DNA of 64,000 nucleotides from Azolla caroliniana (taxonomy: Eukaryota; Plantae; Polypodiophyta), in NCBI GenBank assembly GCA_043228905.1, contig JBHGNT010000014.1, forward strand, positions 9,362,001-9,426,000, written 5' to 3'. Shown piece after piece: positions 3,685-57,739 of the stretch. Position numbers and translations under genes: made by a program. The first letter of the stretch is position 1. Each line of letters opens with the position of its first letter. The notes below the pieces were generated by a model. The model was given only the letters and a program-made list of their open reading frames with translations. It did not search any database and was not told where the DNA came from.

Positions 3685-5615
3685 AGTCACGGATCATAAA
3701 CTCAAGAGACAAGCAAGAAGATAACCAAATGGACAAGAAAGAAGATAGTATTAAAGGAAAGACTCCATAATTGGTGTTGTTCACCTTGAATTCCTTCAAG
3801 GTGAACTCCTCTATTTATACTACATGGCATGCATACTTGTTGCACGCATGTGAATCTACAATAGAGCATGTAGGTATGCATGCATGTGCCAAGTGTAAAT
3901 ACTACAAGGGAGCAACTATGCACATGATGCTAGCAAAATAATAAGGACCAATTACATACATAACTAGTACTAGATATCTTGGTTAACTCATAATACTAGA
4001 TTATAACATGGTCGTGTCAAGAGTTCGAATCTTGACATTATCCCCCCTCTTACGCCGCCTTCCCAAATCGGCCGCTGGTTTGTGGGGATATCGGTGATGA
4101 AAATCTTGGACGACCTCTGGGGCATTTTGTAAATTTGCCGATGGTTCCCATGTGGCCTCAGACATGGGGTAAACCCTCCATAGGATGAGGTATTGCAAGT
4201 GTCGACGGTGCCAACGCGAGTCAAGGATTTGGTCGACCTCGTATTCCTCCCCTGTCGTCAATTGCACAGGTGGTGGTGGTGGGGCTTGACGTCCTGGGAG
4301 TTGTGAAGCATAATGGGGTTCGAGGAGGGAGACATGAAAAACATCATGAATCCGGAAGTGGGATGGAAGGGAGAGCCGGAAGGCGACGGGATTGATGCAC
4401 TCGATGATACGGAATGGTCCCAACTTCTTGTAATCAAGTTTCGCACATGGACGAGTAGTAGAGATGTGTCGACGTAACAACCAGACCATGTCTCCAACGA
4501 CAAAGTGTGGAGTGGAAGATCGATGGCGATCAACCTGCTTCTTGTATCATTCACTAGCAAGACTAAGCTCCAAGGATAAATCATGATGTACTTCTTCCAA
4601 AATGCGGGCGCGATCCTCCGCCGAAGGGTTCACGGAAGTGGTAGCAAGGGAAATGTTGAAGCGAGGATGTAAACCGTAGTTGGCAAAGAAGGGAGTGACG
4701 CCAGTCGATGCATGGAGAGAATTATTGTAGGCGAATTCCGTGAGCGAAAGTAAGTTGACCCAATCATCTTGTTGGTAACTAACCGAGCACCGAAGATACT
4801 GCTCAAGGATTTGGTTGACACGCTCCGTTTGCCCGTCAGTTTGGGGGTGATAAGGTTTCTACCAATGGTGCAAACCAAGCTTGGGCCGGACCGGAGAGAA
4901 GGGTGCCCACAAGGCCGACTTGTCGAAGACCATCTCCATAACGTTGAGGTTGTAGCCAAATGATAAGTCGAACTTGGTTGATGAACCCTTGGAAATGCGA
5001 CCTCGTTCCATCAAATTTTTCGGCGGAGGATCGGGCTCTAGGCTAGGTTGTTGTGGGAGACTAGGGTTCGGGGGTTGTGAGGATAGGGAGGTACCGACTT
5101 GAAGTTCTTGTAAAGAATTTCGAAGAGCTTCATTTTCAAGCTGTAGTTGTCGTAAGGCTACCATTATTTGGCCTAACTCACTAGTTGAGTCGGACATAGC
5201 AATGGCTTATGAGAGGGAGAGCTATGAGGATGGGAAGGTGAACAAATTGTCATGGATCATAAACTCAAGATTCGAACTCTTGACACGAACATGTTATAAT
5301 CTAGTATTATGAGTTAACCAAGATATCTAGTACTAGTTATGTTTGTAATTGGTCCTTATTATTTTGCTAGCATCATGTGCATAGTTGCTCCCTTGTAGTA
5401 TTTACACTTGGCACATGCATGCATACCTACATGCTCTATTGTAGATTCACATGTGTGCAACAAGTATGCATGCCATGTAGTATAAATAGAGGACTTCACC
5501 TTGAAGGAATTCAAGGTGAACAACACCAGTTATGGAGTCTTTCCTTTAATACTATCTTCTTTGTTGTCCATTTGGTTATCTTCTTGCTTGTCTGTTGAGT
5601 TTATGATCCGTGACA
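3685..5615 (-). mobile_element. Element C: 1.9-kb internally deleted chromovirus with inverted LTRs, inserted in the (GA)n tract of B's 3' LTR
   Basis: LTR 3685-4037 (minus) followed by a PPT, and LTR 5263-5615 in the opposite orientation (same spurious 73-aa ORF on opposite strands). The gag start (5197) is fused near 4855 to the integrase C-terminus plus chromodomain (4001-4489). Flanked by GAGAG. Confidence 0.88.
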
Positions 5616-5850
5616 GAGAGAGTGATGATAAGAAAGATATGTATTATATGAAGAGAATATACAATGGTGGCTAAAAGGCTTAAGACTGGCGTTGAACCAA
5701 TTTGGTTCAACATAATGCCTAGTGCCCTCTTTTATAGTGTTTTCAGGAGTAATCTTGAAGCTTCTAGAATGTTCCAGATAAATCTGGAATATACACTAAT
5801 TTCCTATAATAAAATGTAAATGAAAATAATATCCTACATATTACAATAGA

Positions 5851-5905
5851 TGGTCTAATGGTCAAGAGCTCGACCCATATAATCTAAGGTCATGGGTTCG
5901 AGTCT
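5851..5905 (+). promoter_or_regulatory. tRNA-like Pol III A box/B box pair in the B-family LTR (other copies at 16744-16798 +, 44853-44906 -, 49863-49916 -)
   Basis: TGGTCTAATGG and GGTTCGAGTC start 44 nt apart, with an AGGTC variable-loop-like motif. No acceptor stem, so not a functional tRNA. Confidence 0.6.
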
Positions 5906-5934
5906 TGACATATCATGATACTATCCCCCTTTTA

Positions 5935-16294: not shown

Positions 16295-16367
16295 GGGATG
16301 AAAGAAAAGAGGAATAAGAGATTAGTAGGAAATGAGAGAGATAGAAGGTAGAGAAATTGGTTCAAAC

Positions 16368-16472
16368 TGTCAGGAACAGTACTGAGACAAAGAAGGAATT
16401 AGTACTAAACGAAGGATTAGTACTAGGAGAGGTGTAGAACTTCTTCGAGAGAAGGAAGGAGTGAGCGAGACG

Positions 16473-16518
<46 letters not shown>

Positions 16519-16813
16519 TGATAAGAAAGATATGTATTATATGAAGAGAATATACAATGGTGGCTAAAAGGCTTAAGACTGGCGTTGAACCAATTTGGTT
16601 CAACATAATGCCTAGTGCCCTCTTTTATAGTGTTTTCAGGAGTAATCTTGAAGCTTCTAGAATGTTCCAGAGAAATCTGGAATATACACTAATTTCCTAT
16701 AATAAAATGTAAATGAAAATAATATCCTACGTATTACAATAGATGGTCTAATGGTCAAGAGCTCGACCCATATAACCTAAGGTCATGGGTTCGAGTCTTG
16801 CCATATCATGATA
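16368..16813 (-). repeat. 5' LTR of element B
   Basis: Matches 3547-3684 plus 5616-5920 and, reversed, the LTRs of element M. Confidence 0.92.
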
Positions 16814-19533: not shown

Positions 19534-19888
19534 CCTAGTGTGTGAACTCACCTTGAGAGTGAATAGACACTCCAACGGTCAAGAGTCACCATTAAGTCAC
19601 CTCTTTGTATTCTAGCATTTAGTATGAGTCATAGAATCATATTCTATGACACATAACTTATGAGCTTTCACATTCCCCATGCTCTATGAGCCTTGTAGTT
19701 AATGAAGAGAGAGGGTGACTACATAAAGCACCCTCCTCCCACCTTGTATAGTGTTGAGTCTTTCTCCTTTGTCAATATACTTTTACCTTGCGTATTCCTT
19801 GTCTCTCTCACTCTCTCTTTCTCTCTCATACACACACATAACTCATATCTCTTCCGCTTCACAAGAATCCATCTCTTGATTCTTTACA
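19534..19888 (+). mobile_element. Truncated family-F LTR inserted in the gag of element E
   Basis: Reverse-complement homolog of 57336-57739, ending GATTCTTTACA at 19888. The other end is lost at a deletion junction near 19534. Confidence 0.75.
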
Positions 19889-25600: not shown

Positions 25601-26190
25601 CCAAAAAGCTCCAGAAGCTGGAACATTCGAGAAGCTTGTGCGTGAAAATGAGTCTCTGCATGGAACTGCATTTAGAGCCCACAAACATGAATAAATACAG
25701 GGGTTCACCTTGGCCTTAGTCAAGATGAACAACACCAACTTCCGTTCTTGTTCTCTTGTCTATTCTCTCTCTCTCTCTTTCTCTCTCTTAGTATTGAGCC
25801 TCAACTACTCGTCCGTGATAGCTTCATCGAGGAAGAGGGCCAAATCATCGTGCAAGGGCACCAGGACGGGAGGATGTTCATCCTCGACACCAATGACGTT
25901 GGCGCCGCTTTGTTCGCGAAAGGACAGAAAGTCAAACGAGATATCGACTTATGGCACAAGCGAATAGGTCGTGTCAACTACAGAGGCTTCACGATTTGCA
26001 ATCGAAACTAGTGGTATTCGGATTGCCAAAATTTAGTGGCCAGAAGGCCCAAATATGTGGAGCCTGCCAGCTAGGGAAGCAACACTAACTTCCATTCACC
26101 AACGAGCGAAACCAGAGCCGAAACAAGCTCGACTTGATACATTCATATGTATAGGGACCGGCACACAACGTGAGCTTAGGCGTGAGTTCA

Positions 26191-28056: not shown

Positions 28057-30971
28057 TGCTACGCAGCCAAGCTGTTGTCTTACGCTTCCACATGGTATCA
28101 AAGCACGAGGGTTGAAGACCTCTGCAGCCGACACTTGCTTTCACAAGACAAACCCTACAGGTTGTGAGAACAGAACAGTAGACAGAGAAAAATATGGACA
28201 GAGGCATGGCAAGTTCACTTCCTACAAAGAAGCTCGACCAGAGCAACTACGCGTTGTGGTCATACAAAATGCACCAGTACCTACTGGGGCATGGCTATTG
28301 GAGTTTTGTGGAAGGAACGAATGAGGTAGCACCAGAGCCTAGACACAAGGACTTCCCGGTATGGGAGCAAGGAGCGACCTGAGTATTATACTACCTCGCG
28401 TCCTGTGTGCACGACCAGATGCTCAACTACATCAGGGATGCAAAGATGCCGAAGATTTTCGCCGCAAGTACCACAGCCCGTAAGTTGCAGCTCCGGCAAG
28501 AGCTGAACAACATCCGAAAAAACAATATGTCGGTTACGGACTATACCACCAAAATAAAGGAGATTTGCGACACGCTTGGGTCCATCAACGTGATGGTGGA
28601 CGAAGATGAAATGGTACAAATTTTCCTTGGTGGTCTAGCGCAAAGGTACGGGCCAATCCGGAGAGCGATCTGCACCCAGGAGAAACCACCGACCTTCTTC
28701 GACTTGCAATCGATGGTGATGGTCGAAGAAAACCACGCTAGTGGGTCCAGGACCACTCAATCGGACAGTCGGATGTTGTACACAGAGGCAGATAGGCCCT
28801 GTGGGTGTGGGGGACAAGGTGGGTCGGCACGCACTGGAGGCGGCCGGCAAGAGCAGGAAAGAAGGCACAAAGAACGTGCCAACAGTAGTTCCGAAACTTC
28901 CACAAGCAGGGGGAGTCAAGGTGGCGCCGGAGGCTGGCAAGACAAATCCGCCATGGAATGCTGGTACTATGGCAAAAAGGGCCACAGAGAAAGCGAGTGC
29001 TAGAAGAAGCGCGCCAATTCGAACAGATCTGGATCTGGCAAAACCAGTCGGGAGAACCAGCAAAGCTCGCACTACGCACAAGGATCGAAAGGATCCGGAA
29101 CCGGGAAGACCGGTAAGGGGCTAGCCTTGGTGATGAAGCACGAGGAAAATTCGATGAAGAAGACTACTTCCAAATCGGAGGAAGTATGATATGTTGATTC
29201 CGGTGCGTCGAATCACATGACGAGCCACAAAGAGTGGTTCTCCTTCCTGGAGAAACTGGAACAACCGGGAGTTGTCAAAACCGGAGACGACAGTCCTCAC
29301 CCAATCGTGCATATCGGAGAAGTCCCTTTGAGCCACGTAGGACAGAGGGGCAAGTTGTTGAACATATTACACGTTCCGACTATCACGAAGAACCTGGTGT
29401 TGGTTGGACAGATTGTCGACTAGGGGATGTAGGTGCGGTTTACGCACCTCAGGTGCTTCATCGAGGAAGAGGGCCAAATCATTGCGCAAGGGCGTAGAGA
29501 CGGGAGGATGTTTATCCTCAACACCAATGACATCGGCACCACGTTGTTCGCCAAAGGACAGAAGATTGAATCGGATATTGATCTCTGGCACAAGCGGATC
29601 GGCCACGTCAATTACCGGCGGCTTCAAGACTTGCAAACGAAACAAGTTGTTTTCCGTTTGCTGATGTTTAGTGGCCGAAAGGCCCATGTATGTGAAACCT
29701 GCCAACTCGGGAAGCAACACCGACTTCCATTCCCCACCGAACGAAACCATAGTTGTAACAAGCTCGACCTTATTCATTTGGATGTATGGGGACCGGCACA
29801 GAACGTGAGTCTTGGCAGGAGTCGATATTTTGTCTCCTTCATCGACGACTACAGCCGGCACACATGGATCTACCTCATTGAGCGGAAGAGCGAAGTCTTC
29901 GACTGTTTCCAGAACCTCCAAAGCATGGTGGAGCGGGAATCGGAGAGAAAGATCAAGTGCCTACGGTCGGATGGCGAAAAAGAGTACTTTTCTGGCCAAT
30001 TCAACAGTTATCTGTAGCAAAAGGGAATTCGGCGAGAGTTCAGCTGTAGATACACACTAAAACAAAACAGTGTGGCCGAAAGGAAGAACCGGTCGCTCAT
30101 CGACGCGGCAAGGGCAATGCTGGAAGAGAAGAGCATGCCCCATTTCTACTGAGCGTAGGCGGTCCAAACGGTCGTCTACATCCAAAACCGGATCGGTGAC
30201 AAGGTGTCCGCGCATGAGCTATATTTCGGGCGCAAGCCGAATTTGCGACACCTTCGGATATTCGGTAGCATTGCATATGTGCATGTGCTGGATGTGAAGC
30301 GGAGGAAGTTGGATGCAAAGCTGGAGAAAAGCATCCTGGTCGGTTACTCGCATGAGCAAAAGGGGTATAAGTGTTATAACCCCCGAATGAAGCAGCTCCG
30401 GTTAGCTGCGATGTTGAGTTCAATGAAATGGCATCATGGAACTCCTTACCAACTCCGACTTCCGACTCTGACCCGATGCCGGAGGACGAGGCTAGTGAGC
30501 CTGAACCGGCCAAGGTAGAAGTAGTGAAGACTGTTGTCTGTCTGGCCGGACTAGCCTCAACACAGGTGTCTATCCGACACTTCTCCAAAGGGGTGGTAAG
30601 GATTGGATGCTAGGTTACACGCATAAGATGATTACAATTAAGCACAGATGGTAAACAATACGAGACACAGATAAACACGCAATAATTACTATTGTATTAC
30701 TTCCATCCAAAAACTTTACAAATCATCGGATCCTTTTATAGGCATCCGGCAAGGTTACAATCGGTGCGCTTAGGCAACCGACATCCGAATCGGTCCGGAT
30801 CCGGATCGGTACAACTGTACCGGATCCGTCCCTCCGAATAATAATTCTACTATTATTTACTTCCTATTATCCGATCCGATTCCGCCTTCCCACTTGTCCT
30901 TGCTCTTCTGACCGGCCAACACATGGCACGCCCGTGGGAAAGTGCCTTGCACTTCGAATCCACTCCCGGCC

Positions 30972-33642
30972 TCAGTCTTCCTCCAAAATATCGAGCACAC
31001 TTTGCTCGATGGTGTCAAGTGGTGCTTCTTCCTCCTGTTCCTGTTCCTTGCCTGCCTGGTCTCCGACCTCCGGTTGGGTAGGCTGTTTCGTAAAAATTTG
31101 CTGCTCCGGCTCTGCTTGATTCTGTGGTGCCGGTGCTTCCTCACCGCTTCGTCCGGGTTCTTCCTGTTCTCCCTCCGTTCCTGGCTCTGTTCTGTTACCG
31201 GTGTCGCTTTCTCCGGTCTCGACTGGTCGACTCGATATGCCTCCTTCCTCTGCTCTGGTGTCTTCCGGTCTCAGCTCTTCTTCTTCTCCGGCATCGGTCT
31301 GCTCCTGCTCTTCTTCAAGTTCGTCTTCGGGTATTCCTCGTCGGGGTTGTTCGGTGTCGGTTGGTTCATCTTCAGTCGGTCGCTCTCCCTCACTTATTGT
31401 GATTGGCGTCGTTCTTCCCTTAGCTTCCTGTCTTAACCGGTCCTGCTCGTATCTCTCCAACTCCAACTGAGTTGCGAGCTGCCCGTCATCCAACCTCTCT
31501 ACCAACCCTCGGATTTCTTTGAGGTGTTCTTCTGCTAAAGTGTAGAAATCCTCTGACAATTCTTCCCGAATGGCGACGATACTTTCTTCATCCATCTTGT
31601 AGAACTTGTCACCGGTCTTCCTCCGATTCTCGGCATCTGCTCGGAGTGTCTGCAGCTCGGCTGCCTGTTGTGACCACTCCTTCCATAGCTTTTCCGTACT
31701 CGGCCTGCTTGTGATCTCGGTAGAGACGGTCGAAGTCCTCCGTCTTCTGCTTCAGGCGTCGGGTTGCCTGAGCTCTTAACCGATCGTCCCGGTCCTTCTG
31801 TTGTCGGAGTTCTTCCTGCAGTTGTTCTATCTCTTGCTCGGCATGTCGACGTAGTCGGTCCTTCTCCTTTTGCAGCTTCTCTTTTTCTTCTTGCAGTCGG
31901 TCATTAGCGGCTCGACCTTTCCGGAGGCCTTCTTCCATTTTTCGTCTGTTGTCCTCCACCGCTTTCCGCTGCTCCCTTTCTCTTTCCCTTAATGCCTCCT
32001 GAGCTTTTAACTCCTCTCATAAGGTTTCTATTATTTTTTCGGTCTCAGGGCCGGTTTGCAAGGCTATCGGTTCCGGTTCCGGTTCTGGTTGCTTCCTTGT
32101 TGTCCCGACCGGCTCGGTGACAACTTGTGCTTGTTGAATTCCTTCCCTTGCCTGCAACAGCTCCCCTTGCATTTCCTCGATCTGTGTTCGGAGCGCGACC
32201 AACTCCTGAGTTGTTGTATGCGTCAGTTGTTGCCTACACGTTTCTTCTTTCTCTAACTGGTCCGCTACTCCCGATAACTGCTCCGAAAGCCATCTCAGCC
32301 ATTGTGGCTTTGTTCTTCCGGTGTCGGGGTGGCCTTGCTCACTTAAGTCACGCTGATTTTCCGGCCTCTTCTCTGGCTCCGGCTCCGGCGCTTGTTCCTT
32401 CTTCTTCTCTGGGATGACCGGTTTTCTGAAGTCCGGCCCAACCGGTGTCGGTGTTGCTTCCCTGGGTACGGGTTCCGGTGCTGTTTCCACCTCGGCTACT
32501 GGAGATGGTCCTTGCGCCCTCTGCTGAGTTCTGTCCACTGGTGGAGCCGGTCCTTTCGCCCGTTTCTCCTGACCTTGTCTTGCTGGGAGTCTTACCAGTG
32601 GTTCGGATGAGTCTTCTGTTTCAGCCTCCTCCTCCGGTGCGGTTACCAGACGGACCTTTTGTATAAAGACCTCAGGTTCCGGTTCCGGCCGTCGCAGCGT
32701 TATATGGATTGGTTTTCGCGCTACCGGTTCCTCCTCAGCCGATTTCCCTTTGCCTTTACCTGCCGGTTTTGCCTTTGTTGCCGGTTCCTGTTGCTGTCGG
32801 GATGGTCCTTCCCCCTGCTGTTCTGCTTCTTGTTGGGTCCATCCGGGGGTGTGTTTCTCCAAGATCTGTTGGCGCTTTGTGACCTTTTTCGGTGTCGTCT
32901 CCTGCCGACCTCTTTTCTTTTGTGTGATGGGGAGCACCGGTGGGACTAACACCGTTAGCCATTGTGCTATCCCGGCCCATGGCTTTTTTCCTTCCACAAG
33001 ATTTTTGATGGCCTCCTTCAATCCTTCGGTTATGAAATGGAGCCAGTCTATTTGTAAGCCCTCGTACGCTGCTATTAAGAACGCTGCCCGGTACTTGGCT
33101 ATGCCTGGGGGACGGGGATTCACGAATCCGTATTCCATCATAGCGCGGGCCACTTCTCCGAACAGCAGGTTCTCTCCGCCCTGCGTTCGGTACGCCTTGC
33201 TGCTGATAGAGTATTCCCCGAAATATTCGAACAGGATTTCACTGGAAGGGTTTTCGATTGTTTGAAGTCCTCCTGCTTTGATCCCCATGAGCGCCTGCAC
33301 CGCTCCTTCCGTGACTTCTGATATATCGATCGATGCTGCCGCCTGCTCTGGTTCTGCGTGTGGTGGAGCGTCGGCGATCCGCAACAATCCTTTTAACCCG
33401 TTCTCCCTCATCCATTGGCGTGCCTCTTCCGACAGTACCATTGTTTCGAATTCTTCTTCTGCTGCTTGTTGTTCGGGATCGCGCTGTGTGTGCTCTGTGC
33501 GTCGGGTCGCTCTTCTGTGCTTCTGCGCCTGTATGTAGGAAAATTCGTAAAAAGTGAGCCCTTCGCAGGCCTGTGTCTTATATAGTAAGTTGTGCCTCGA
33601 GCCGCCCTTTTTCGTTTCCCGCGCATGTTCCTCTCCTGCCAT
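30972..33642 (-). pseudogene. Extra 3' ORF of element K (~820-890 aa, unknown function; globular N-terminus, Pro/Glu-rich linker, coiled coil, acidic tail)
   Basis: ORFs 32017-33705, 31609-31959 and 30972-31595 join into one frame by reverting one TGA (32017-32019, probably from CGA) and one 1-nt frameshift near 31693. Start ATG at 33642 or 33441. Confidence 0.75.
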
Positions 33643-34158
33643 AATTAGTATGTCCTTTCTTGTTTGCCGCGTGTGAGTGCCCACGTTCCATGCTTTAAAT
33701 AGCAAGTACGCGCACGTCCTTTTTTAATGCATGACGCCTCTTCATTGCATGGTGGCGCTCCCACCTCTTGTGATCTCCCCATCATTACTATGATTCGCGT
33801 CGATTTTGCCCACGTCTTCTCTTTTCTTTTTTTCTTTTTTTTTCTTTTTTTTTTTTTTTCTTTGTTTGGACCACGTCATTTGCTTGTCCCCCCCGATTTG
33901 TTCGGGTCGGTTCGTGTGGATACCGGATCCTTCTGTCGGTTTTCCGGGATAGTCTTTGTCAGTATCGGTGTCGGTTCTTCCTCGGTCCGAATATCTTCAG
34001 CAACGTCCGTCGGTGTCGGTTCCTCATCTTGCCGGATTTCCGGGTTTTGGTTGAACGGGTTGGCTGGCATATTTCCCTTATACGGCTTTAGTCGAAATCC
34101 ATTTGCCCACTTGCCGATGACATCTCCAGACAACGTGCCGAGCTGATACGACCCATTG

Positions 34159-39747: not shown

Positions 39748-42700
39748 CATTGTACTCCTTGGTGATCCAGAACGGTCCGGTCCATCGAAACCACAACTTT
39801 CCCGGCATGTTCCCCATCCGTGTCTGGAATAGTAGTACCAGTTTCCCGACCTCGAACTCCTTTTCATTGCCACGCCGGTGTCGGTCCACGAAGGCTTTTC
39901 TCCTCCTTTGCTCCAGTTCGAGTTGTAGTAAGCTGGCTATTCAGTTTTCCTCTAATTCCAACAACGCCACCAGCCGGATTCGTTCGGACTTGTTCTCACT
40001 TAAGCGCTCCTTCACCTGAATCCGTAAGCTAGGGATCTGGAACTCTACCGGCATGACCGCTTCTAACCCGAATGCTAGTCGGAACGGGGTTGTCCGGATG
40101 TGGTCGCCAAAATAGTGTTGTCTGTCTGGCCGGACTAGCCTCAACACAGGTGTCTATCCGACACTTCTCCAAAGGGGTGGTAAGGATTGGATGCTAGGTT
40201 ACACGCATAAGATGATTACAATTAAGCACAGATGGTAAACAATACAAGATACAGATAAACACGCAATAATTACTATTGTATTACTTCCGTCCAAAAACTT
40301 TACAAATCATCGGATCCTTTTATAGGCATCCGGCAAGGTTACGATCGGTGCGCTTAGGCAACCGACATCCGAATCGGTCCGGATCCGGATCGGTACAACT
40401 GTACCGGATCCGTCCCTCCGAATAATAATTCTACTATTATTTACTTCCTATTATCCGATCCGATTCCGCCTTCCCACTTGTCCTTGCTCTTCTGACCGGC
40501 CAACAAAGACTTTGTCGTGCTCTCCCCGCGCAAGGAAGCAAGGAGACGATTCACGCACAAAGAGAAGGAGAAGAAGAAGATGCCGGAATACAAAATCGGC
40601 AACGCTGAGTCGGATTGGTGCGAATCCGACTCTAGAAAAGATGAAGGCGGATCTTTGGCAACGAAGACCGAACCGGTCAAGCGGGACCTCAAACCGGGTA
40701 ATACCAAGTTACATCATTCTTCCCGAAGAACCCCGTGACCCGATACGGGTACAATGAGTACATGGCGCATCACTATGTGTACATGACCAAGGTGGCGAAA
40801 GTGCGTGAGCCGGAGAGCTCCGCAGAAGCGGCAAAGGACGCAAGTTGGCGTGCCGCTATGGAGGAAGAAATGCGGGCACTTGATGCCAACGACACATGGG
40901 ACCTACTTGACCCTCCCCGACGCTGTAAACCGATCGGATGTAAGTGGGTGTACAAGATAAAGTACAATGTCAACGGTTTGGTAAACCGGTACAAGGCCCT
41001 GTTAGTGGCGAAGGGATACGTGCAAACCCACGGAATCGACTACAACGAGACCACGGAATTGACTACGACGAGACCTTCGCTCCGGTAGCGAAGATGACAA
41101 TGGTTTGTGTGGTGCTAGCGATTGCTACGGAAAGGGGGTGGCATCTTCACTAGATGGACGTGAAGAATGTTTTTCTTCAAGGCGATCTTGAAGAAGAGGT
41201 CTTTATGACCCAACCCCCTGGTTTTCAGTCAGAGATGAACAAGTTGGCGGTATGCCGGCTAAAGAAGTCACTTTATGGCCTGAAGCAAGCCCCTGAGCTT
41301 GGAATGCAAAGATTACGCACCGGTTGCGTAAGATGGGGTTTGCGGCCTCCAAGTCTGACTCTTTGTTGTTCATCTGGCAAGGTCTGGACGGTCCGGTTTG
41401 CATCTTGCTGTATGTTGATGATCTAGTCATCACCGGACCCGGACTCGATGAAATCAACTGAGTCAAGTCCCAGCTGTCAGAAGCATTTGAGATGAAGGAC
41501 GTGGGGGACCTTCACTATTTCCTCAGGATCGAAGTGATCCGAGCCCCCGACGGCATATTGCTCTCACAGAGACACTATGTGTTGAATATGTTGTACAAGT
41601 TCGGCATGACGTAATCCCGACCGATCTCCACACCCCTGGACCAGAACCAAAAGCTTTGTCCCAACTCCGGACCGGCCTACGATGAGAAACGGTTCCGACA
41701 AATTGTCGGAAGCCTTATATATTTGACCATCACCCGAGCCGACATCAGCTATTCGATCGGTGTGATTAGCCATTTCATGCTGAACTCGATCGTAGAGCAT
41801 CTTCAATGCGCACACCAAATACTGCGGTATGTGAGCGGCACGAAGGACTAGGAACTGTTATACCGGCATGGTATAACCGAAGAGCTAGTCGGTTACACGG
41901 ATGTCGACTGGGCCGGCAATGCATCAGATCGCCGATCAACTTCCGGTTACATGTTTTCCCCACGTAGCGTGGTTGTTGCGTGGAGCAGCAAAAAGCAGCC
42001 AACAGTGGCTCTGTCGAGCACTGAGGCTAAGTATCGGGGTGCTACTGTTGCCACCTGTGAAGCCATTTGGGTTCGGCGACTCCTGCAAGACCTATGGATC
42101 GCCAAGAACCCAATATTCCATGCTCGCACAAAGCACATAGAAGTGCACTACCACTTCATGTGTGAGCATGTCCTGAGCAGTGAAGTCGAACTTCAGTATG
42201 TTCATACGGATCGGCAAGTTGCCGAAATCTTCACCAAACCGCTCGGATCGGACAAGTTGCAGCACTTCACCGATATGCTTGGTGTTCAGCATCTCGACAT
42301 GCCACACTTGAGGGGGAGAACGGGCAAAGACACCAGCAAAGACACCGGAATAGGCAAAGGCAAAGAGACTGTCGATTGTGTCGGTAAGGGAAGAGCCGAC
42401 AAGAGGAGAGACAAGAAGAAGAAAGGAACCGAGTCAACAGAGGAAGTTGACACATCCGAACAAGTCGGAACAAGCGGTTGCGGCGGCAGAGTCAAGAAGG
42501 ACAGAGCCGACCGAAAGAAGAAGGCCAAAACCTGGATATGGTCCAATGCGGTAAGTGCCGGAGTCGCAACAACGAGGGAGCTGAATTGGGCATGTTGAGC
42601 AAACGAGCCGACCGAGAAGGTCGAGGTGCGCAGAACAAGAGGGGTTGCAACAAACAGAACCGGACCGGACGAAGAGCGCGAGCAAGGCGGAGCGACACCA

Positions 42701-43184: not shown

Positions 43185-45263
43185 TGCTATGTAGCCAAGC
43201 TGTTGTCTTACGCTTCCGCACATACGCTTCCACACAAAGGAAGTCTGAGTGAGCCGAGATGTCAAATTCAACGAGTCGTCATAATGGTACTCCCTACCGA
43301 CCCCGACCCTCGACAACTACGACTACCCGATCATTGAGGATGAGGCCAGTGAACCTGGCATGATTCGGGTAGAAGAAGAAGACGAAGAAGATTTAGGTAC
43401 TCTGGAAGAGAGTCTGATCTCATTCCAGGTAAGTGGGCCGAATGAGAGATTGAGTAAAATTGACCAGTCCGATGAAGAGCTGACGAGTGTTGAGGACTCG
43501 ACCGTGCATTCCCCATACAAGGAACCGAGGACATGACGGTTCACACATAAAGAGAAAGGGAAGAAGAAGATGTTGGAGTAGGGCACAGACAAGGCAAACT
43601 CGGATTGGAATGAATCCGACGCCAAAAAGAATGAAAACGGAGCTTCGGAAACGAAGTCTGAGTTAGCCAAGAGGGCCCTCAAATCGGCAAACAAGAAATT
43701 ACATCGATCGACCCACCAAAAGAATCTCGTGAAGCGGTACAGATATAATGAGTACATGGCACATCATGATGCGTACATGACGAAAGTGGCGGAAGTGCGT
43801 GAGCCAGAGAGCTATGCAAAAGCAACAATAGACGCGAATTGGTGTGCCGCAATGGAGGAAGAGAATGGAGGAAGAGATGTGAGCAGTAACGGAGAATGAG
43901 ACGTGAGACCTAGTTGACGCCTCCAAGGGTGTAAAGCCTATCAGATGTAGGTGGTTGTACAAGATCAAGTACAACGCCGATGGCTCCATCAACCGGTACA
44001 AGGCCCAGTTAGTCGCCAAGTTAGTCAACTATGATGACACGTTTACGCTAGTCGCAAAGATGACGACCGTTTGTATCTTGCTTGCGGTCGCGGCGGCGAA
44101 GGGTTGGGTTTTGCACCAGATGGATGTGAAGCATTCCTACAACGAGAACTTGAGGAACAAGTACACATGGTGCAACCACTCGGATTTCAGTCTTGAATCA
44201 ATATGTCAGTTGTATGCCGACTAAAGAAGTCTGTTTACGTATTAAAGCAAGCCACGGGTGCTTGGAACACGAAGATCACGCAGCGCCTATGTCGGATGCG
44301 GTTTGCTACATCCAAGTCGGACTCTTCACTCTTCATCCGGCAAGGTCGGCATGGGTCGGTAAGTCTTTTACTCTATGTCGATGATTTAGTCATCACTGGC
44401 ACCGACCTAGAAGAAATCGATTGCGTGAAGTCTCAACTTGCGGCATCATTTGAGATGAAGGACATGGGGGACCTTCACTACTTCCTCGAGATAGAAGTGA
44501 TAGACACCCCCACCGGCAGATTATTATTACAGAGACAATATGTACTAAATATGTTGTACAAGTTCGGCATGACGGATTGCCGACCGGTCTCAACACCCCT
44601 TGACCGGAATCAAACGGTCCTAACTCCGGACTGTCCTACAACGAGAAATGGTTCCAAAAAATTCTCAAAAGCCTAATATATCTTACTATCACCCAACCCG
44701 ACATCAGCTATCCGGTCGGGGTGATAAGTCAGTTTATGCAGCAACCGACCATCGAGCACCTTCAGTGCACGCATCCCCTACTGCGATATGTGGGCAGCAC
44801 TAAGGATTGAGGACTATTGTACTGACATGGTGTGACTGTCATGATATGGCAAGACTCGAACCCATGACCTTATGGTATATGGGTCGAGCTCTTAACCATC
44901 ACACTATCTATTGTAATTCATAGGATATTATTTTCATTTATGTTTTATTATAAGAAAGTAATGTATATTCCAGATTTCTTTGGAACATTCTAGAAGTTTC
45001 AGGATTACTCCTGACAACACTATAAAAGAAGGCACTAGGCATTATGTTGAACCAAATTGGTTCAACGCCAGTCTTAAGCCTCTCAGCCGCTTTGTACTTA
45101 TCTTTTCACATAATATATTAGCTGCTGTCATCATCTTTCTCTCTCTCTCTCCTCTTCTCACTTCCTCTCTCAGGAATCTTACGTAGTCCCGTCCTCTTAG
45201 TACTAATAGTACTGCTCTTCTTAGTACTAATTCCATCTCTGCTTTAGTACTATTCCTGACAGT

Positions 45264-45275
45264 TTGAACCAATTT
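45264..45275 (+). promoter_or_regulatory. Self-priming-type primer binding site of element M
   Basis: TTGAACCAATTT, 2 nt after the 5' LTR, is the exact complement of LTR 45054-45065 (33 nt after TATAAAA at 45021). No TGG-initiated tRNA PBS is present. Confidence 0.75.
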
Positions 45276-45334
45276 TTCCTTTCCTCCAGCCTACTTGTCA
45301 TTCTCCCTCCTCCTCCTACCCTTTTCCCTATACT

Positions 45335-46189
45335 ATGGCTACTGTTAGTGCCCAAGAATATCAATCCGTTTTCTCCAAGTTACAGTGCCTAAAAGAAAAG
45401 TTTGTTGCCCTGGAACAAGAAAACCAACGGTTGATAGGGGATCTCCAACAAATCGCTCTCGAAAAACAACAAACGCAACAACAACATGGGGAGTTAGCAT
45501 TACGGGTACAACAACTCGAAGCAGCGTTGCAACAACAAGGATCAAGTCCCCAAGGATTTCATAAAGAGCCCAAGATTGGACTTCCTGTGAAATTTGATGG
45601 AACGCGATCGCAATTCCGGGGATTCCTTAATCAAGTACGCTTAGTCATCCGGATGCATCCTTCCCGATATCCCACTGATGCATCTCGAGTCGGCCTAATA
45701 GGCACGTTACTTAGCGGCTCAGCCTTGGCATGGTTCGCTCCGCTTCTAGAAAAACAATCACCCTTGCTTAATAACTTTGAGGATTTTAGTGGTGAGTTTA
45801 AAGCCTGCTTTGGAGATACTCACAGCATCAGGACGGCGATCAACAAGATCCGAAGATTGCGTCAAGGCGATCGTCCAGCCTCTGCCTACGCGGCGGATTT
45901 CCTTCTACTCGCCTCAGATATTCCCTGGGATGATCAGGCCCTCATGGAGCAGTTTCGCTACGGCTTGCGCAATGATGTCAGAGATCTGCTTTTAACCTTC
46001 CCCGAAGAGCCAAAGTCTCTTACGGAGGCAATCAGTCGAGCGGTCCGATGCTACAACCGCCTTTTCAAACGGCGTTCGGAGCGTCAGTTACAAATACCAC
46101 GCTCTCGGCTAGAACCCACATACGCCTCAGTCACGGCTAAACCGTTTGCACGTATGTCATCAGTAATCCGTGAATCCATCGAGGTGTGA
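45335..46189 (+). pseudogene. gag: C-terminally truncated gag of element M
   Basis: Closely similar to B's gag until [10 protein letters not shown], then reads into the inverted segment. The zinc knuckle is lost. Confidence 0.88.
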
Positions 46190-48323
46190 AAAATCCGCGT
46201 CGTGTGCAATCGTGTTGGTCCCAAGATTACTTGCTTTTTGATTATCAAATTTGGATCACCAGGACGAGGTGCAAGATATGAACGCCGTGATAGTGCATCT
46301 GCTTTTCCTTGGTGCTTCCCCGGTCGATATGTGATTTTGAAGTCGAAACGCGTGAGGAATTGCGCCCACCGAGCTTGCCGTCAATTTAGTATGCAAGCGT
46401 TCTGGAAATAAGCAAGATTTTTATGAACACTAAAGACAACAACCTGATGTGGAGAGCCCTCTAAGAAATGCTGCCATTACACAAATGAATCACGATGGCT
46501 AATAACTCCTTGTCATGTATTTCGTAGTTGATTTCCTCAACATCGAATTTGCGCGAATGGAAAGCCACCGGATGCAACTCTTCTTTATCTCCTTGTTGAG
46601 AAAGGATGCTACCAAGGGCGAAATCTAAAGCATCGGCCTCCATGATGAATGGTTTGCTAGTATCCACATGAGCTAGAATCGGTGCTGATGTAAAGGCTTT
46701 CTTAAGATGCCGAAAAGCCATATCTGCTTTAATGGACTAAAGAAATGCTTGGCCCTTCTTCGTAAGTTGTGTGAGGGGTAAGATAATCTTCGAGTAATCC
46801 TGTATAAACTTACGGTAGAGGTTAGCAAAACCTAGAAAACATTGTACATCTCGTACCGACCGTGGAATTCGCCACTCTAGTACAGTTTGGACTTTAGCTG
46901 GATCCATGGCGATGCCCTTTGAGGAGATGACGTAGCCTAGAAATTCCACTTGCTTGCAGTCAAAGCTACATTTTCCTAGCTTGGCATAAAGACCATTCTC
47001 GCGGAGTCGCTTTAGTACTAATAATACATGAGAATCGTGCTCTTGCTGGGTCTTCGAATAAATCAATAGATCATCAAGATAGATGATCAAACAGATATCC
47101 AAGAGCTCTCTGAATATATCATTTGCCATGTGTTGGAAGACTGCGGGTGCATTGGTTAGGCCGAACGGCATAACAGTATACTCGAAATGCCCATACCGCG
47201 TGCGAAAGGCGGTCTTCCATTCATCTCCCGGTCAGATCCGCACGAGGTTATACGCTCCTCGCAGATCGATTTTGGTAAAAAACTTGGCACCATTAACTCG
47301 CTCTAAAAGACTTGATATAAGAGGAAGTGCATACCTATTCCGGATGGTGACCTTATTCAATCCACGGTAATCAACGACGAGACGAAGTGAGCCATCTTTC
47401 TTCTTGACAAAGAAGATGGGTGCACCGGCCGAAGATTTCGAATGACGGATGAACCCGCTTGCCAAGTCATCCTCTATGTAGGCTCGAAGGACTTCTAACT
47501 CGGTGGGTGACAAGTTGTAAATTGGTCCCCATGGTGGCTCGGTTCCTGGTTGTAAATCGATAGGACAGTCATAGGGACGGTGATGAGGAAGGGTACAGGC
47601 TTTTACCTTGTCAAATACATCGGCATAAGGATGATATTTTGCCTGAAGTTGTACTGAGGAGTCCTTAATAGTGCTGGAAGGATGTACTGATATTGCAAAT
47701 AGGATTACTCGAAGATTATCTTACCCCTCACACAACTTACGAAGAAGGGCCAAGCATTTCTTTGGTCCATTGAAGTAGATATGGCTTTTCGGCATCTTAA
47801 GAAAGCCTTTACATCAGCACCGATTCTAGCTCATGTGGATACTAGCAAACCATTCATCATGGAGGCCGATGCTTCAGATTTCGCCCTTGGTAGCATCCTT
47901 TCTCAACAAGGAGATAAAGAAGAGTTGCATCCGGTGGCTTTCCATTCGCGCAAATTCGATGTTGCGGAAATCAACTACGAAATACATGACAAGGAGTTAT
48001 TAGCCATCGTGGATTCATTTGTGCAATGGCGGCATTTCTTAGAGGGCTCTCCACATCAGCTTGTTGTCTTTAGTGATCATAAAAATCTTGCTTATTTCCA
48101 GAATGCTCGCGTACTAAAATCGACGACAAGCTCGGTTGGCGCAATTCCTCACGCGTTTCGACTTCAAAATCACATATTGACCGGGGAAGCAGCAAGGAAA
48201 AGCAGATGCACTATCACGGCGTTCATATCTTGCACCTCGTCCTGGTGATCCAACATTTGATAATCAAAAGCAAGTAATCTTGGGACGAACACGATTGCAC
48301 ACGACGCGGTTTTTCACACCCCG

Positions 48324-49835
48324 ATGGATTCACGGATTACCGATGACATACGTGCAAACTTGAAGACGGATAGTTTTGCTCAAGACATCCTGACGCACAT
48401 TGATACTTCTCGGGCATCCTGTTCTCAGTCTCAAAAACCAGGTATTGACTACCGACAATTCGAATATCATGATGGTTTGTTATTCTTTAAAAAGCGCGTA
48501 TATGTCCCCGATTGCTCCTGTCGCCTTCAAATCATCCAACATTGTCACGACACCCATACGGCGGGACATTTCGGTAGTACTAAGACGTTGGAGCTAGTGC
48601 AACGATCTTTTTGGTGGCCCCACATGCGCCGTTTTGTCGACGACTACGTTCGGACCTGTGATGCTTGCTGCCGAGCAAAGATGCCACGACACCATCCATA
48701 TGGCTTGTTGGAACCCTTACCGATTCCAAGTAAGCCGTGGCAGTCTATTTGTCTTGATTTTATCACAGATCTGCCGGTCTCGCAGGGGTTCGAGGCTATC
48801 TTAACCATCGTTGATCGGTATACGAAGATGGCACATTTTGTTCCGTGTACTAAGGCCATCAGTAGCGAGCAAACCGCCGCCCTAGTCATGCGTGAGGTAT
48901 TTCAGCATCATGGCCTCCTAGACAGTATCATCAGTGACCGAGGACCGCAATTTGTCTCCAAATTTTGGCAGCATCTCTTCAAGATGCTCAAGGTCTCTTT
49001 CAACCTCTCCTCCGGCTACCATCCTCAGACCGATGGGCAGGCAGAACGAACAAACCAAACGCTGGAGCAATATCTCCAGTGTTTCCTGAGTTATCAACAA
49101 GACGATTGGGCCGAGATTCTCCACTTTGCGGAGTTTGCGTATAATAATGTTGTTCACTCCTCGACTCGAGTCTCCCCATTCTACGCTTATACCGGTTCTC
49201 ATCCTCGCTGGTCGGTGATCGACACCCAGGAGCTACCTACCAATCCTCGTGCCGGGGATCATTTGGAGAGACTACGCAAGATTCAGACAGATCTCTCGAC
49301 TAATCTTCGTCATGCTCAACAGACACAGAAGACTTACGCGGATCGTCATCGGCTTCCCTCGTCTTTTGCCATCGGAGATCGAGTATGGCTCTTACGTCGT
49401 CACATCAAGACTACTCGACCGTGCAACAAGTTGGATTATCGACGACTCGGTCCTTTCCGTATTTCGGGTAAAGTTTATGATGTCACATTCCGCCTTGATC
49501 TCCCTCCGCAGCTTCAGATACATCCAGTTTTCCATTGTTCTCTTCTTGAACCTTATAAAGCAAACACCATTCCCGATCGTGTTACACCACCGCCGCCCCC
49601 GCTGGAGTTGGACGCCGGCCCGGAGTATGAAGTTGCTGCCATCCTCGATTCCAAACTTATTCGCAACAAACTTTATTATTTGGTCGATTGGGTTGGTTAT
49701 AGTCCGAGCGAACGCACTTGGGAACCCGTCGAGCATGTTGCCAATGCTCAGGATCTGCTTGCTGATTTCCACCGAAAGTATCCGGACAAACCCGGTCCGC
49801 AATCAGCGCCGACTCGTTCCACTCGTCGTCTTTAA
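48324..49835 (+). CDS. pol: Integrase plus chromodomain portion of pol of element M (open frame, not independently initiated)
   Basis: HHCC zinc finger, LDFITDL, SDRGPQF, HPQTDGQAER, GPF motif and chromodomain EYEVAAILDSK..TWEP. Confidence 0.85.
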   Translation: MDSRITDDIRANLKTDSFAQDILTHIDTSRASCSQSQKPGIDYRQFEYHDGLLFFKKRVYVPDCSCRLQIIQHCHDTHTAGHFGSTKTLELVQRSFWWPHMRRFVDDYVRTCDACCRAKMPRHHPYGLLEPLPIPSKPWQSICLDFITDLPVSQGFEAILTIVDRYTKMAHFVPCTKAISSEQTAALVMREVFQHHGLLDSIISDRGPQFVSKFWQHLFKMLKVSFNLSSGYHPQTDGQAERTNQTLEQYLQCFLSYQQDDWAEILHFAEFAYNNVVHSSTRVSPFYAYTGSHPRWSVIDTQELPTNPRAGDHLERLRKIQTDLSTNLRHAQQTQKTYADRHRLPSSFAIGDRVWLLRRHIKTTRPCNKLDYRRLGPFRISGKVYDVTFRLDLPPQLQIHPVFHCSLLEPYKANTIPDRVTPPPPPLELDAGPEYEVAAILDSKLIRNKLYYLVDWVGYSPSERTWEPVEHVANAQDLLADFHRKYPDKPGPQSAPTRSTRRL

Positions 49836-51144
49836 GGGGGAGATAGTGTCATGATATGGCAAGACTCGAACCCATGACCTTATGGTATATGAGTCGAGCT
49901 CTTAACCATCACACCATCTATTGTAATTCATAAAATATTATTTTCATTTATGTTTTATTATAAGAAAGTAATGTATATTCCAGATTTCTCTGGAACATTC
50001 TAGAAGTTTCAGGATCACTTTTGACAACACTATAAAAGAAGGCACTAGGCATTATGTTGAACCAAATTGGTTCAACGCCAGTCTTAAGCCTCTCAGCCGC
50101 TGTGTACTTATTTTTTCACATAATATATTAGCTGTTGTCATCATCTTTCTCTCTCTCTCTCTCCTCTTCTCACTTCCTCTCCCGGGAATCTTACACAATC
50201 CCGTCCTCTTAGTACTAATAGTACTGCTCTTCTTAGTACTAATTCCATCTCTGCTTTAGTACTATTCCTGACAGTGACTAGGCAGGTGATGTGTCAGATC
50301 GTCGGTCAACATTTGGCTTTATGTTCTCTCTTGGTAGCGCGGTTGTTGCATGGACCAACAAGAAGCAGTCGACACTAGCTCTGTCAAGCAATGAGGTTGA
50401 GTATCGAGGAGCTACCATCGCGACCTGTGAAACCATACGGTTTCATCAACTACTACAAGACCTCTAGATCGAAGTACCAACTCCGATCCCGATCTACTAT
50501 GACAACATAAGTAGCATGTAGCTGGCCAAGAACCCTGTGTTCAATGTTCGGACGAAGCACATAGAAGTGCATTATCACTTTGTGCACGAGCAGGTTCTGA
50601 GTAGTGAAGTCGGAACTACGGTATGTTCGAACGGATCGGAAGGTTGGTGACATCTTCACCAAGATACTCTGATTGGACAAGTTGCAGCACTTTTCAGATA
50701 TGCTTGGACTGCAGCATCTTGACGTGCCACACTTGAGGAGGACAATCGGAATAGGAACCAAGAGAACCTGTAACAGCACGAGAGAAGCAGCCAGAAAGAA
50801 GAAGGAAAAGACCAAAATAGAGGGAAACAAGAAGAAAAAGGAGGCCGAGTTGACTGAAGATGTTAGCACATCCGATAAAGTCAGAACAAGCGGTAGTGGC
50901 AGCCGAATCAAGAAGGACATGGCCGACCGGAAGATAAAGACCAAGACCCAGACATGGTCTAAGATTGAAGACTCAGAAGAGCTAGAACGAATTGGAGACA
51001 ACCGACTCAGAAGAGGTGCTCATTTCGGAGGAGCCAAATCAACAGAAGGCCAAATGGACAAGAAGGCAACGGAAGTTGACACCGACACGGAGGAGCCGAC
51101 AGGTCGAGCAATGTCGAAGTCACAGCAGCGAAGGAATTTGACGG

Positions 51145-57441: not shown

Positions 57442-57739
57442 AGACACAAGATTGATAATAGAAAATACTCAAGAGGATTGTATATTACAAAGGAGATTAA
57501 TCGAAATATTAGAAAGTAGGAGGAGAGTGCTTTATATAGTCACTCTCTCTCTTCATTAACTACCGGAGCTCATGTGTCATGGGGAATGTGGAAACTCATT
57601 AGTTATGTGTCATAGAATATGATTCTATGACACATAGTTAATGTGTAAATAGTAGTGGTGTGACTTTTGACCTTTGAATGTTCATACACTCTCAACGGTG
57701 TGTTCACACACTAGGCTAGGTTGAGCTTGATTCTCAACA
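56866..57739 (-). mobile_element. Element Q: 5' end of a family-F copia (LTR 57336-57739, PBS, gag N-terminus)
   Basis: Reverse-complement Met PBS at 57324-57335. Gag ATG at 57168 (MSTQMGSALPSKKLDQNNFASWEYKMHQYL). Confidence 0.85.

What the first reader, a model, noticed from the sequence alone, without database searches (positions are those of the whole stretch)
45021..45277. tRNA-independent self-priming module in plant chromovirus LTRs, covarying across families, with an extra U3 arm forming a hairpin
Seen: in M and B the sequence 2 nt after the 5' LTR (TTGAACCAATTT) complements LTR sequence starting 33 nt after the TATA box. In family C a different 11-mer (TTGTTCACCTT, 5235-5245) also lies 2 nt from the LTR and complements AAGGTGAACAA, 32 nt after TATA (5513-5523). 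In both families the putative primer is the 3' arm of a hairpin whose 5' arm repeats the PBS: GTTGAACCAA-A-TTGGTTCAAC (45046-45066) and TTCACCTTGAA-GGAA-TTCAAGGTGAA (5495-5520). D has an imperfect version at 25703-25730. Known: S. pombe Tf1 primes reverse transcription with the first 11 nt of its own RNA. Inference: these plant elements self-prime, and the U3 arm, transcribed only in the 3' LTR, would mask the 3' R copy so that it cannot compete for the PBS. I am not aware of that extra arm being described.
Basis: partly seen in the sequence, partly recalled or inferred. Interest (0 to 1): 0.85.

Follow-up and report, generated by a model that had tools for sequence, protein, structure and literature searches.

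The report
Self-priming retrotransposons with primer-masking hairpin
These plant jumping genes likely start copying themselves with their own RNA end instead of a tRNA, as already predicted for their group, and about half of the related lineages also carry a short hairpin arm that likely hides the second, 3' copy of that primer, an optional extra I did not find in print.

Summary
M and B carry a 12-nt PBS 2 nt after the 5' LTR that complements LTR sequence at TATA+33; C has a different 11-mer at TATA+32. One correction: C's '5' LTR' is an inverted copy, so the correctly oriented primer lies in its 3' LTR. The elements fit the Tcn1 (Tf1/sushi) chromoviruses, for which self-priming is already predicted (83% of 1500 plant elements, Neumann 2019). 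In 25 distinct close relatives, primer and PBS pair in 299 of 300 cells, with compensatory changes at six positions. The U3 arm is real and recurrent: a stem scoring at least 7 occurs in 6 of 13 primer families from outside the window, against 8.7% background (P about 4e-4), with unrelated sequences and different loop positions. It is not universal: two relative clades lack it, and it did not follow primer changes (1 of 9 cells compensated). Best reading: known self-priming plus an optional arm that likely masks the 3' primer copy. No TSS data were available. This scan noted the same hairpin earlier in other genomes (unchecked AI notes).

The parts
44837..45261 (+). Element M, 5' LTR (TG...CA; TSD GTGAC at 44832-44836)
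45021..45027 (+). M TATA box
   Evidence: sequence; spacing to primer +31 to +34 in most relatives
45045..45053 (+). M U3 arm; pairs with primer nt 6-12 and the next 2 nt of R
45054..45065 (+). M putative self-primer (predicted first 12 nt of the RNA; C|A at -1/+1)
45264..45275 (+). M PBS, 2 nt after the LTR, no TGG start, 12/12 complementary to the primer
45335..46189 (+). M gag (Retrotrans_gag, Ty3_capsid), truncated at an internal rearrangement
46144..48359 (.). M RT-RNase H segment inverted, RNase H duplicated (97% identical copies); no protease region aligned to B's
48264..49835 (+). M integrase with chromodomain (aromatic-cage residues read by eye)
49834..49843 (+). M polypurine tract
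49847..50273 (+). M 3' LTR; arm 50056-50063 and primer copy 50064-50075, the copy that would be transcribed with its arm
16368..16813 (-). Element B, 5' LTR; arm 16604-16597, primer 16596-16585
16354..16365 (-). B PBS, identical to M's
5616..5920 (-). B 3' LTR, first part (arm 5711-5704, primer copy 5703-5692); the rest lies at 3685-3547 after the insertion of C
5259..5615 (+). Element C, inverted LTR copy: TATA 5481, hairpin 5495-5520, primer sequence 5513-5523
5235..5245 (-). C PBS, 2 nt after a short U5 tail (5270-5248)
3686..4037 (-). C 3' LTR; 12-bp hairpin, arm 3806-3795, primer copy 3787-3777
25703..25732 (+). Element D 3' LTR: imperfect C-type hairpin with primer-like 11-mer at 25722-25732, 32 nt after a degenerate TATA; no PBS in the window

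Best explanation
M, B and C are dead copies of Tcn1-like chromoviruses that likely prime reverse transcription with the first 11-12 nt of their own RNA, and the U3 arm is an optional accessory that likely folds onto the second primer copy at the RNA 3' end so that this copy cannot take the PBS. Steps: (1) shown: primer/PBS complementarity, its fixed place after TATA, and its covariation. (2) Inferred from Tf1: transcription starts at the primer, the primer pairs with the PBS, and RNase H cuts it free. (4) Computed: the arm would sequester 7-9 primer nucleotides of that copy. (5) Inferred: the benefit is small, because lineages without the arm still amplified. Primer and PBS are likely kept matched by replication itself (the plus strand copies the primer into the PBS), while nothing corrects the arm, which would explain why it lags behind primer changes.
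For: Primer:PBS pairs are Watson-Crick in 297 and G-U in 2 of 300 cells over 25 distinct close relatives, with two-sided changes at primer positions 2, 3, 4, 5, 7 and 8. The primer starts at a pyrimidine|purine step in 56 of 62 entries (14 primer lengths set by hand). Predicted primer:PBS pairing in the leader is 0.91 for M and B and at least 0.78 in 25 of 28 elements. Arm stem score (G-U counted 0.5) of at least 7 by family median in 7 of 15 primer families, and in 6 of 13 outside the window, against 8.7% at other LTR positions (binomial P 4.4e-4). At the main TATA of 9 other LTRs (4 with a visible TGG PBS) the score was at most 5.5. Arms have unrelated sequences and loops at different places (inside the primer in M/B, L135, L105; inside U3 in C, L103, L121) and are scattered over the RT tree, which suggests repeated solutions. 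In a model joining leader and 3' LTR, the 3' copy holds the PBS at 0.02 or less in 19 of 28 native elements; for M it rises from 0.000 to 0.71 when the arm region is shuffled.
Against: No arm (score 4.5 or less) in L002, L014, L129, L141, and no clear one in L017/L018 or L024. Among close relatives only 7 of 26 distinct sequences score at least 7 (median 5). Two well-supported clades (3 and 8 rows) lack the canonical arm. Where primer positions 7-8 changed, the arm compensated in 1 of 9 cells. In those clades the model shows no substitute masking (3' occupancy 0.14-0.87). Outer arm positions vary among family copies (45046 G>T in 30 contigs, 45048 T>C in 25 contigs of run X1). The model uses an artificial 40-nt linker; the real 5-kb distance favours the 5' primer without any arm. 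The hairpins fold about equally on both strands and as DNA, so the strand of action is not shown. Families are not fully independent, and three positives (L012, L105, L121) are borderline. One secondary TATA-like site in a control LTR scored 15.
Confidence: 0.45

Rival explanations
1. Self-priming as above, but the arm is a mutational by-product: fold-back or template switching at the U3/R border creates and perfects inverted repeats there, and the short GAACC core is kept as initiator sequence, not for pairing.
For: Several arms pair past the primer into R, so they mirror the LTR itself and are not PBS copies (L039 to +16). Arm-less relatives keep a similar AAYY|A context at -4..+1. There is little compensation inside the close-relative group, and arm-less clades are well represented. 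M and C both carry inversions as old as their LTRs, so template switching is common in these elements.
Against: Loop positions differ between families, so no single fold-back point explains them. The LTRs used as controls show no such stem at their main TATA. The stems cover the primer in each case.
Confidence: 0.27
2. The arm acts in DNA during reverse transcription: it would fold the new minus-strand copy of the primer region so that it cannot capture the RNA primer and expose it to RNase H, or fold the plus strong-stop DNA so that its 3' PBS end cannot snap back onto the internal primer copy.
For: The hairpins are stable as single-stranded DNA on both strands for M and C (about -10 kcal/mol, z about -4). 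Tf1 cDNA often keeps a single-stranded PBS at its 3' end (PMC11042837, passages).
Against: D folds better on the plus RNA strand (z -2.8) than on the minus strand or as DNA (z -1.6 to -1.9). G-U pairs inside the stems of L103, L004 and L007 suit the plus strand (few cases). These regions are mostly double-stranded during synthesis (established mechanism, recalled).
Confidence: 0.15
3. The PBS is read by a host tRNA fragment (GGTTCAA resembles a tRNA T-loop), and the LTR match is incidental.
For: The M/B primer ends in GGTTCAA, like a T-loop (motif recalled, no call). The host tRNA set could not be searched: no genome is held and the window has no tRNA gene.
Against: No TGG start. PBS variants in relatives and in C lose the T-loop match yet keep the match to their own LTR.
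Confidence: 0.04

Closest known systems
Plant chromovirus clade Tcn1 (Neumann et al. 2019, PMC6317226; Novikova et al. 2010, PMC2864245)
   Same: Ty3/gypsy order with chromodomain, aromatic cage, 5-bp TSD, overlapping gag/pol frames in relatives, fungal-type integrase, no tRNA PBS, predicted self-primer found by the same criterion (at least 10 bp complement starting 0-5 bp after the LTR).
   Different: Neither paper mentions a hairpin or palindrome (0 occurrences in the main texts). Novikova found no self-primer in SM-Tcn1. No named Tcn1 reference was available for my trees.
Tf1/Tf2 (S. pombe), Tj1, Tosmo1-3: Tf1/sushi self-priming with the three-duplex 'pretzel' leader
   Same: An 11-12-nt primer at the predicted RNA 5' end, complementary to a PBS just after the LTR.
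   Different: The pretzel's extra duplexes pair PBS-adjacent sequence with LTR sequence downstream of the primer (10.1101/2022.12.06.519325, passages). The arm here lies upstream, in U3. Clear flanking duplexes were not predicted in the five leaders printed. Whether Tf1 has a U3 arm could not be checked: the LTR alignment in Fig. S10 is a picture.
TAR-lineage copia elements (Houba, Osr-1)
   Same: Predicted self-priming in plants (89% of 203 elements).
   Different: Ty1/copia, unrelated lineage.

Membership tests
Tcn1 chromovirus clade | Ty3/gypsy domain order with C-terminal chromodomain | tested here: met
   Pfam, (M and C chromodomains; B gag-PR-RT-RH-INT)
Tcn1 chromovirus clade | Aromatic cage in the chromodomain (95% of Tcn1) | tested here: met
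   M chromodomain Y..W..Y read by eye, matching the PpatensLTR2/Tcn1 pattern in Fig. S10A
Tcn1 chromovirus clade | 5-bp TSD | tested here: met
   GTGAC (M), AGATA (B)
Tcn1 chromovirus clade | gag and pol in overlapping frames | tested here: met
   6 of 6 relatives examined; B overlap is short
Tcn1 chromovirus clade | RT/RH/INT phylogeny with named Tcn1 references | not testable with these tools
   REXdb files too large. The RT tree separates these elements from tRNA-PBS rows; nearest integrase clusters are mostly Basidiomycota
Tcn1 chromovirus clade | Non-seed plant host | tested here: inconclusive
   A neighbouring copia matches Streptophyta clusters; no finer host name was returned
Tf1/sushi self-priming | PBS complementary to own LTR, not to a tRNA 3' end | tested here: met
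   host tRNA set not available
Tf1/sushi self-priming | Primer is the 5' end of the transcript | tested here: inconclusive
   Only indirect: TATA spacing and Y|R step; no raw RNA reads
Tf1/sushi self-priming | Three-duplex pretzel leader | tested here: inconclusive
   Central duplex predicted; flanking duplexes weak, sequence after the PBS unpaired in 5 of 5 printed folds
Tf1/sushi self-priming | RNase H cleavage releases the primer | not testable with these tools
   needs biochemistry

The most novel reading that the evidence does not exclude
Self-priming retroelements face a built-in conflict, a second primer copy in the 3' R, and many lineages have independently evolved a U3 arm that tells the two RNA ends apart by masking that copy: a general, undescribed cis-element of self-primed reverse transcription.
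Probability: 0.45. Interest if true: 0.7.

Novelty: new variant of a known kind. Interest (0 to 1): 0.48.

Why it matters
Self-priming has been shown by experiment mainly in fission-yeast elements, and how such an RNA keeps its two identical primer copies apart is not addressed in the papers I could read. A recurrent U3 arm gives a concrete, cheaply testable answer (a few compensatory bases in the 3' LTR of an active element). The covarying primer/PBS series also adds sequence evidence for self-priming in plant Tcn1-like elements, which was predicted from single-element complementarity. The arm's absence from successful clades limits its importance: it is a modifier, not a core step.

Tried and rejected
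No genome is held, so covariation across genomic copies and the host tRNA set could not be examined. No RNA holder was listed; the four runs laid are contigs, which cannot show a TSS. The Gag profile found nothing in viral contigs. No C/D-type hairpin was found in the 179 loci then held; the C-type PBS pattern in viral contigs gave 99 apparent chance matches, used as a control. Rfam gave no credible match in M's LTR. The expected-paired-bases statistic separated real from shuffled U3 poorly, so stem length was used. L005 and L118 were dropped because the script mis-called their primers. Of 79 metagenome loci, 34 gave a full TATA-primer-PBS span; the other 45 were not examined one by one. Of 24 viral loci 17, and of 76 genome-collection loci 7, gave an assignable primer. 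Literature searches that found no description of a U3 arm. Rejected: that the arm is a plain PBS copy (it mirrors R beyond the primer), that it is universal, and that it covaries tightly with the primer.

Full report
Setting. The window is a nest of LTR retrotransposons. M (44837-50273, plus strand) and B (16813-3547, minus strand, interrupted by other insertions) belong to one family; C (5615-3686, minus) is an internally deleted element inserted into B's 3' LTR; D is a 3' fragment (RT 22640 to the LTR near 25480-25815). No whole genome is held. All four copies are broken. A neighbouring copia matches Streptophyta clusters; the integrase of M is nearest to mostly Basidiomycota clusters, as expected for the Tcn1 clade, which is fungal-related and found in non-seed plants (PMC2864245, section 6 read).

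Observation. All coordinates check out. M and B have a 12-nt PBS 2 nt after the LTR-terminal CA, fully complementary to an LTR 12-mer that starts 33 nt after the first T of TATA. C has an unrelated 11-mer at +32. The hairpins fold with z-scores of -3.5 (M), -3.7 (C) and -2.8 (D) as plus-strand RNA. Three corrections: the M/B arm is 8-9 nt with the loop inside the primer; C's upstream LTR is inverted, so the valid primer and arm are in its 3' LTR; D has no PBS in the window.

Prior art. Neumann et al. 2019 (PMC6317226; passages; supplement 5 whole; supplements 1 and 3 too large to read, and they may list individual self-primers) predict self-priming for 83% of 1500 plant Tcn1 elements and 89% of 203 TAR elements. 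Tf1's mechanism (first 11 nt pair with the PBS, RNase H cuts between nt 11 and 12) is taken from passages of PMC7175516, PMC4600332 and PMC5341516. The pretzel leader is described in passages of 10.1101/2022.12.06.519325. PMC3601003 (passages) mentions hairpin priming only in the sense of self-priming. The primary papers (Levin 1995 and 1996, Lin and Levin 1997 and 1998, Butler 2001, Goodwin and Poulter 2001, Atwood-Moore 2006) I saw only as reference-list entries, so a description of the arm there cannot be excluded. Nine searches found none.

Relatives. Gag and RT/INT searches gave 24 viral-collection loci, 79 metagenome loci and 76 loci from genome bins, read as eukaryotic contaminants. A primer and PBS could be assigned in 17, 34 and 7 of these; with L068 counted twice and the three window elements this makes 62 entries after dropping two mis-calls. 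The hosts of these loci are unknown. Primer lengths were set by hand for 14 entries.

Primer and PBS. In the group around M/B (25 distinct sequences) 297 of 300 primer:PBS cells are Watson-Crick, 2 are G-U and 1 is a mismatch, with two-sided changes at six of 12 positions. The primer starts +31 to +34 from TATA in most entries and at a Y|R step in 56 of 62. Predicted pairing in the leader is at least 0.78 in 25 of 28 elements. This tight match is what self-priming itself would produce, because the plus strand copies the primer into the PBS (inference from the Tf1 mechanism). Neither PBS begins with TGG. I put self-priming at about 0.93.

The U3 arm. I scored the best continuous stem whose 3' strand covers at least 4 primer nt and whose 5' strand has at least 4 U3 nt. 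Scores were 9.5 (M/B), 11 (C), 12.5 (L103/L107), 10.5 (L121), 9 (L135), 8.5 (L011), 7 (L012, L105), 3.5-8.5 in the ten-member L001 group (5 of 10 at least 7), and 6 or less in L002, L014, L017/L018, L024, L129 and L141. Background at other LTR positions averaged 8.7% for a score of at least 7. By family median 7 of 15 families pass; leaving out the two window families that prompted the finding, 6 of 13 pass (P 4.4e-4). Nine control LTRs scored at most 5.5 at their main TATA, though one secondary TATA-like site scored 15. Arm-bearing families are spread over the RT tree (FastTree, weak backbone), and their loops fall in different places.

Against a strict role. In the M/B group only 7 of 26 distinct sequences score at least 7; many keep only a 5-6-bp core. 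The Gag tree shows two starred clades without the canonical arm: one of 3 rows with the primer essentially unchanged, and one of 8 rows in which primer positions 7-8 changed and the arm compensated in 1 of 9 cells; four of those 8 rows have a weak 5-bp stem in another register. Outer arm bases also vary among family copies in public contigs (the tool lists only differences away from contig ends, so the lack of rows in the core is weak evidence).

Folding model. With leader and 3' LTR joined by an artificial 40-nt linker, the 3' primer copy occupies the PBS at 0.02 or less in 19 of 28 native elements, including those with only the short core, and at 0.14-0.87 in nine, mostly the arm-less relatives. 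Shuffling the 25 nt before the primer raises it to 0.71 in M and 0.27 in B. This shows that the arm is sufficient to mask the copy, not that masking is needed; a few arm-less elements (L002, L017, L129) also score low for other reasons.

Verdict. These are ordinary Tcn1-like elements whose self-priming is already predicted in print. The extra U3 arm is a real, recurrent and apparently undescribed feature, but optional. Masking of the 3' RNA copy is the most likely role (0.45), ahead of a mutational by-product (0.27) and a DNA-level role (0.15). Three earlier notes of this scan report the same kind of hairpin in other genomes; they are unchecked and are not counted as evidence. Novelty: new variant of a known kind; interest 0.48.

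Noticed in passing
window 5248-5615: Element C starts with a full inverted LTR (97.5% identical to its 3' LTR) joined to a short U5 tail by a 6-nt microhomology, so both ends of the integrated element are U5 ends. It looks like a template switch after the second strand transfer.
   Followed up: partly
window 46144-48359: In M the RT-RNase H segment is inverted, with RNase H duplicated (97% identity, about the same as the 96% between the LTRs), suggesting that the rearrangement dates from the insertion.
   Followed up: partly
window 44838-44900 (minus strand) and the same place in B and several relatives (e.g. L042, L100): The start of U3 carries A-box- and B-box-like motifs (recalled consensus) in antisense, like a degenerate tRNA or Pol III promoter. 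ARAGORN and Rfam found no tRNA.
   Followed up: partly
window 45066-45075 and relatives L026-L102: A motif just after the primer (C-R-CCAGTC) is conserved across the M/B group and C/D share its start; in M it extends the hairpin by pairing with U3. Role unknown.
   Followed up: no
window 57600-57640 (minus) and 19625-19655: An LTR of another family carries a long palindrome (stem score 15) in U3, well upstream of its TATA.
   Followed up: no
L035, L050, L068: Contigs with tandem elements separated by one LTR, as described for Tf1/Tf2 integrase-independent insertion (PMC11042837); may also be assembly collapse.
   Followed up: no
L104-L179: Dozens of prokaryotic genome bins contain eukaryote-type Ty3/gypsy RT contigs, most likely contamination.
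   Followed up: no
window 32017-33723 (minus): A 568-codon open frame without Pfam match inside an element bounded by 390-nt repeats at 30532-30921 and 40116-40505.
   Followed up: no
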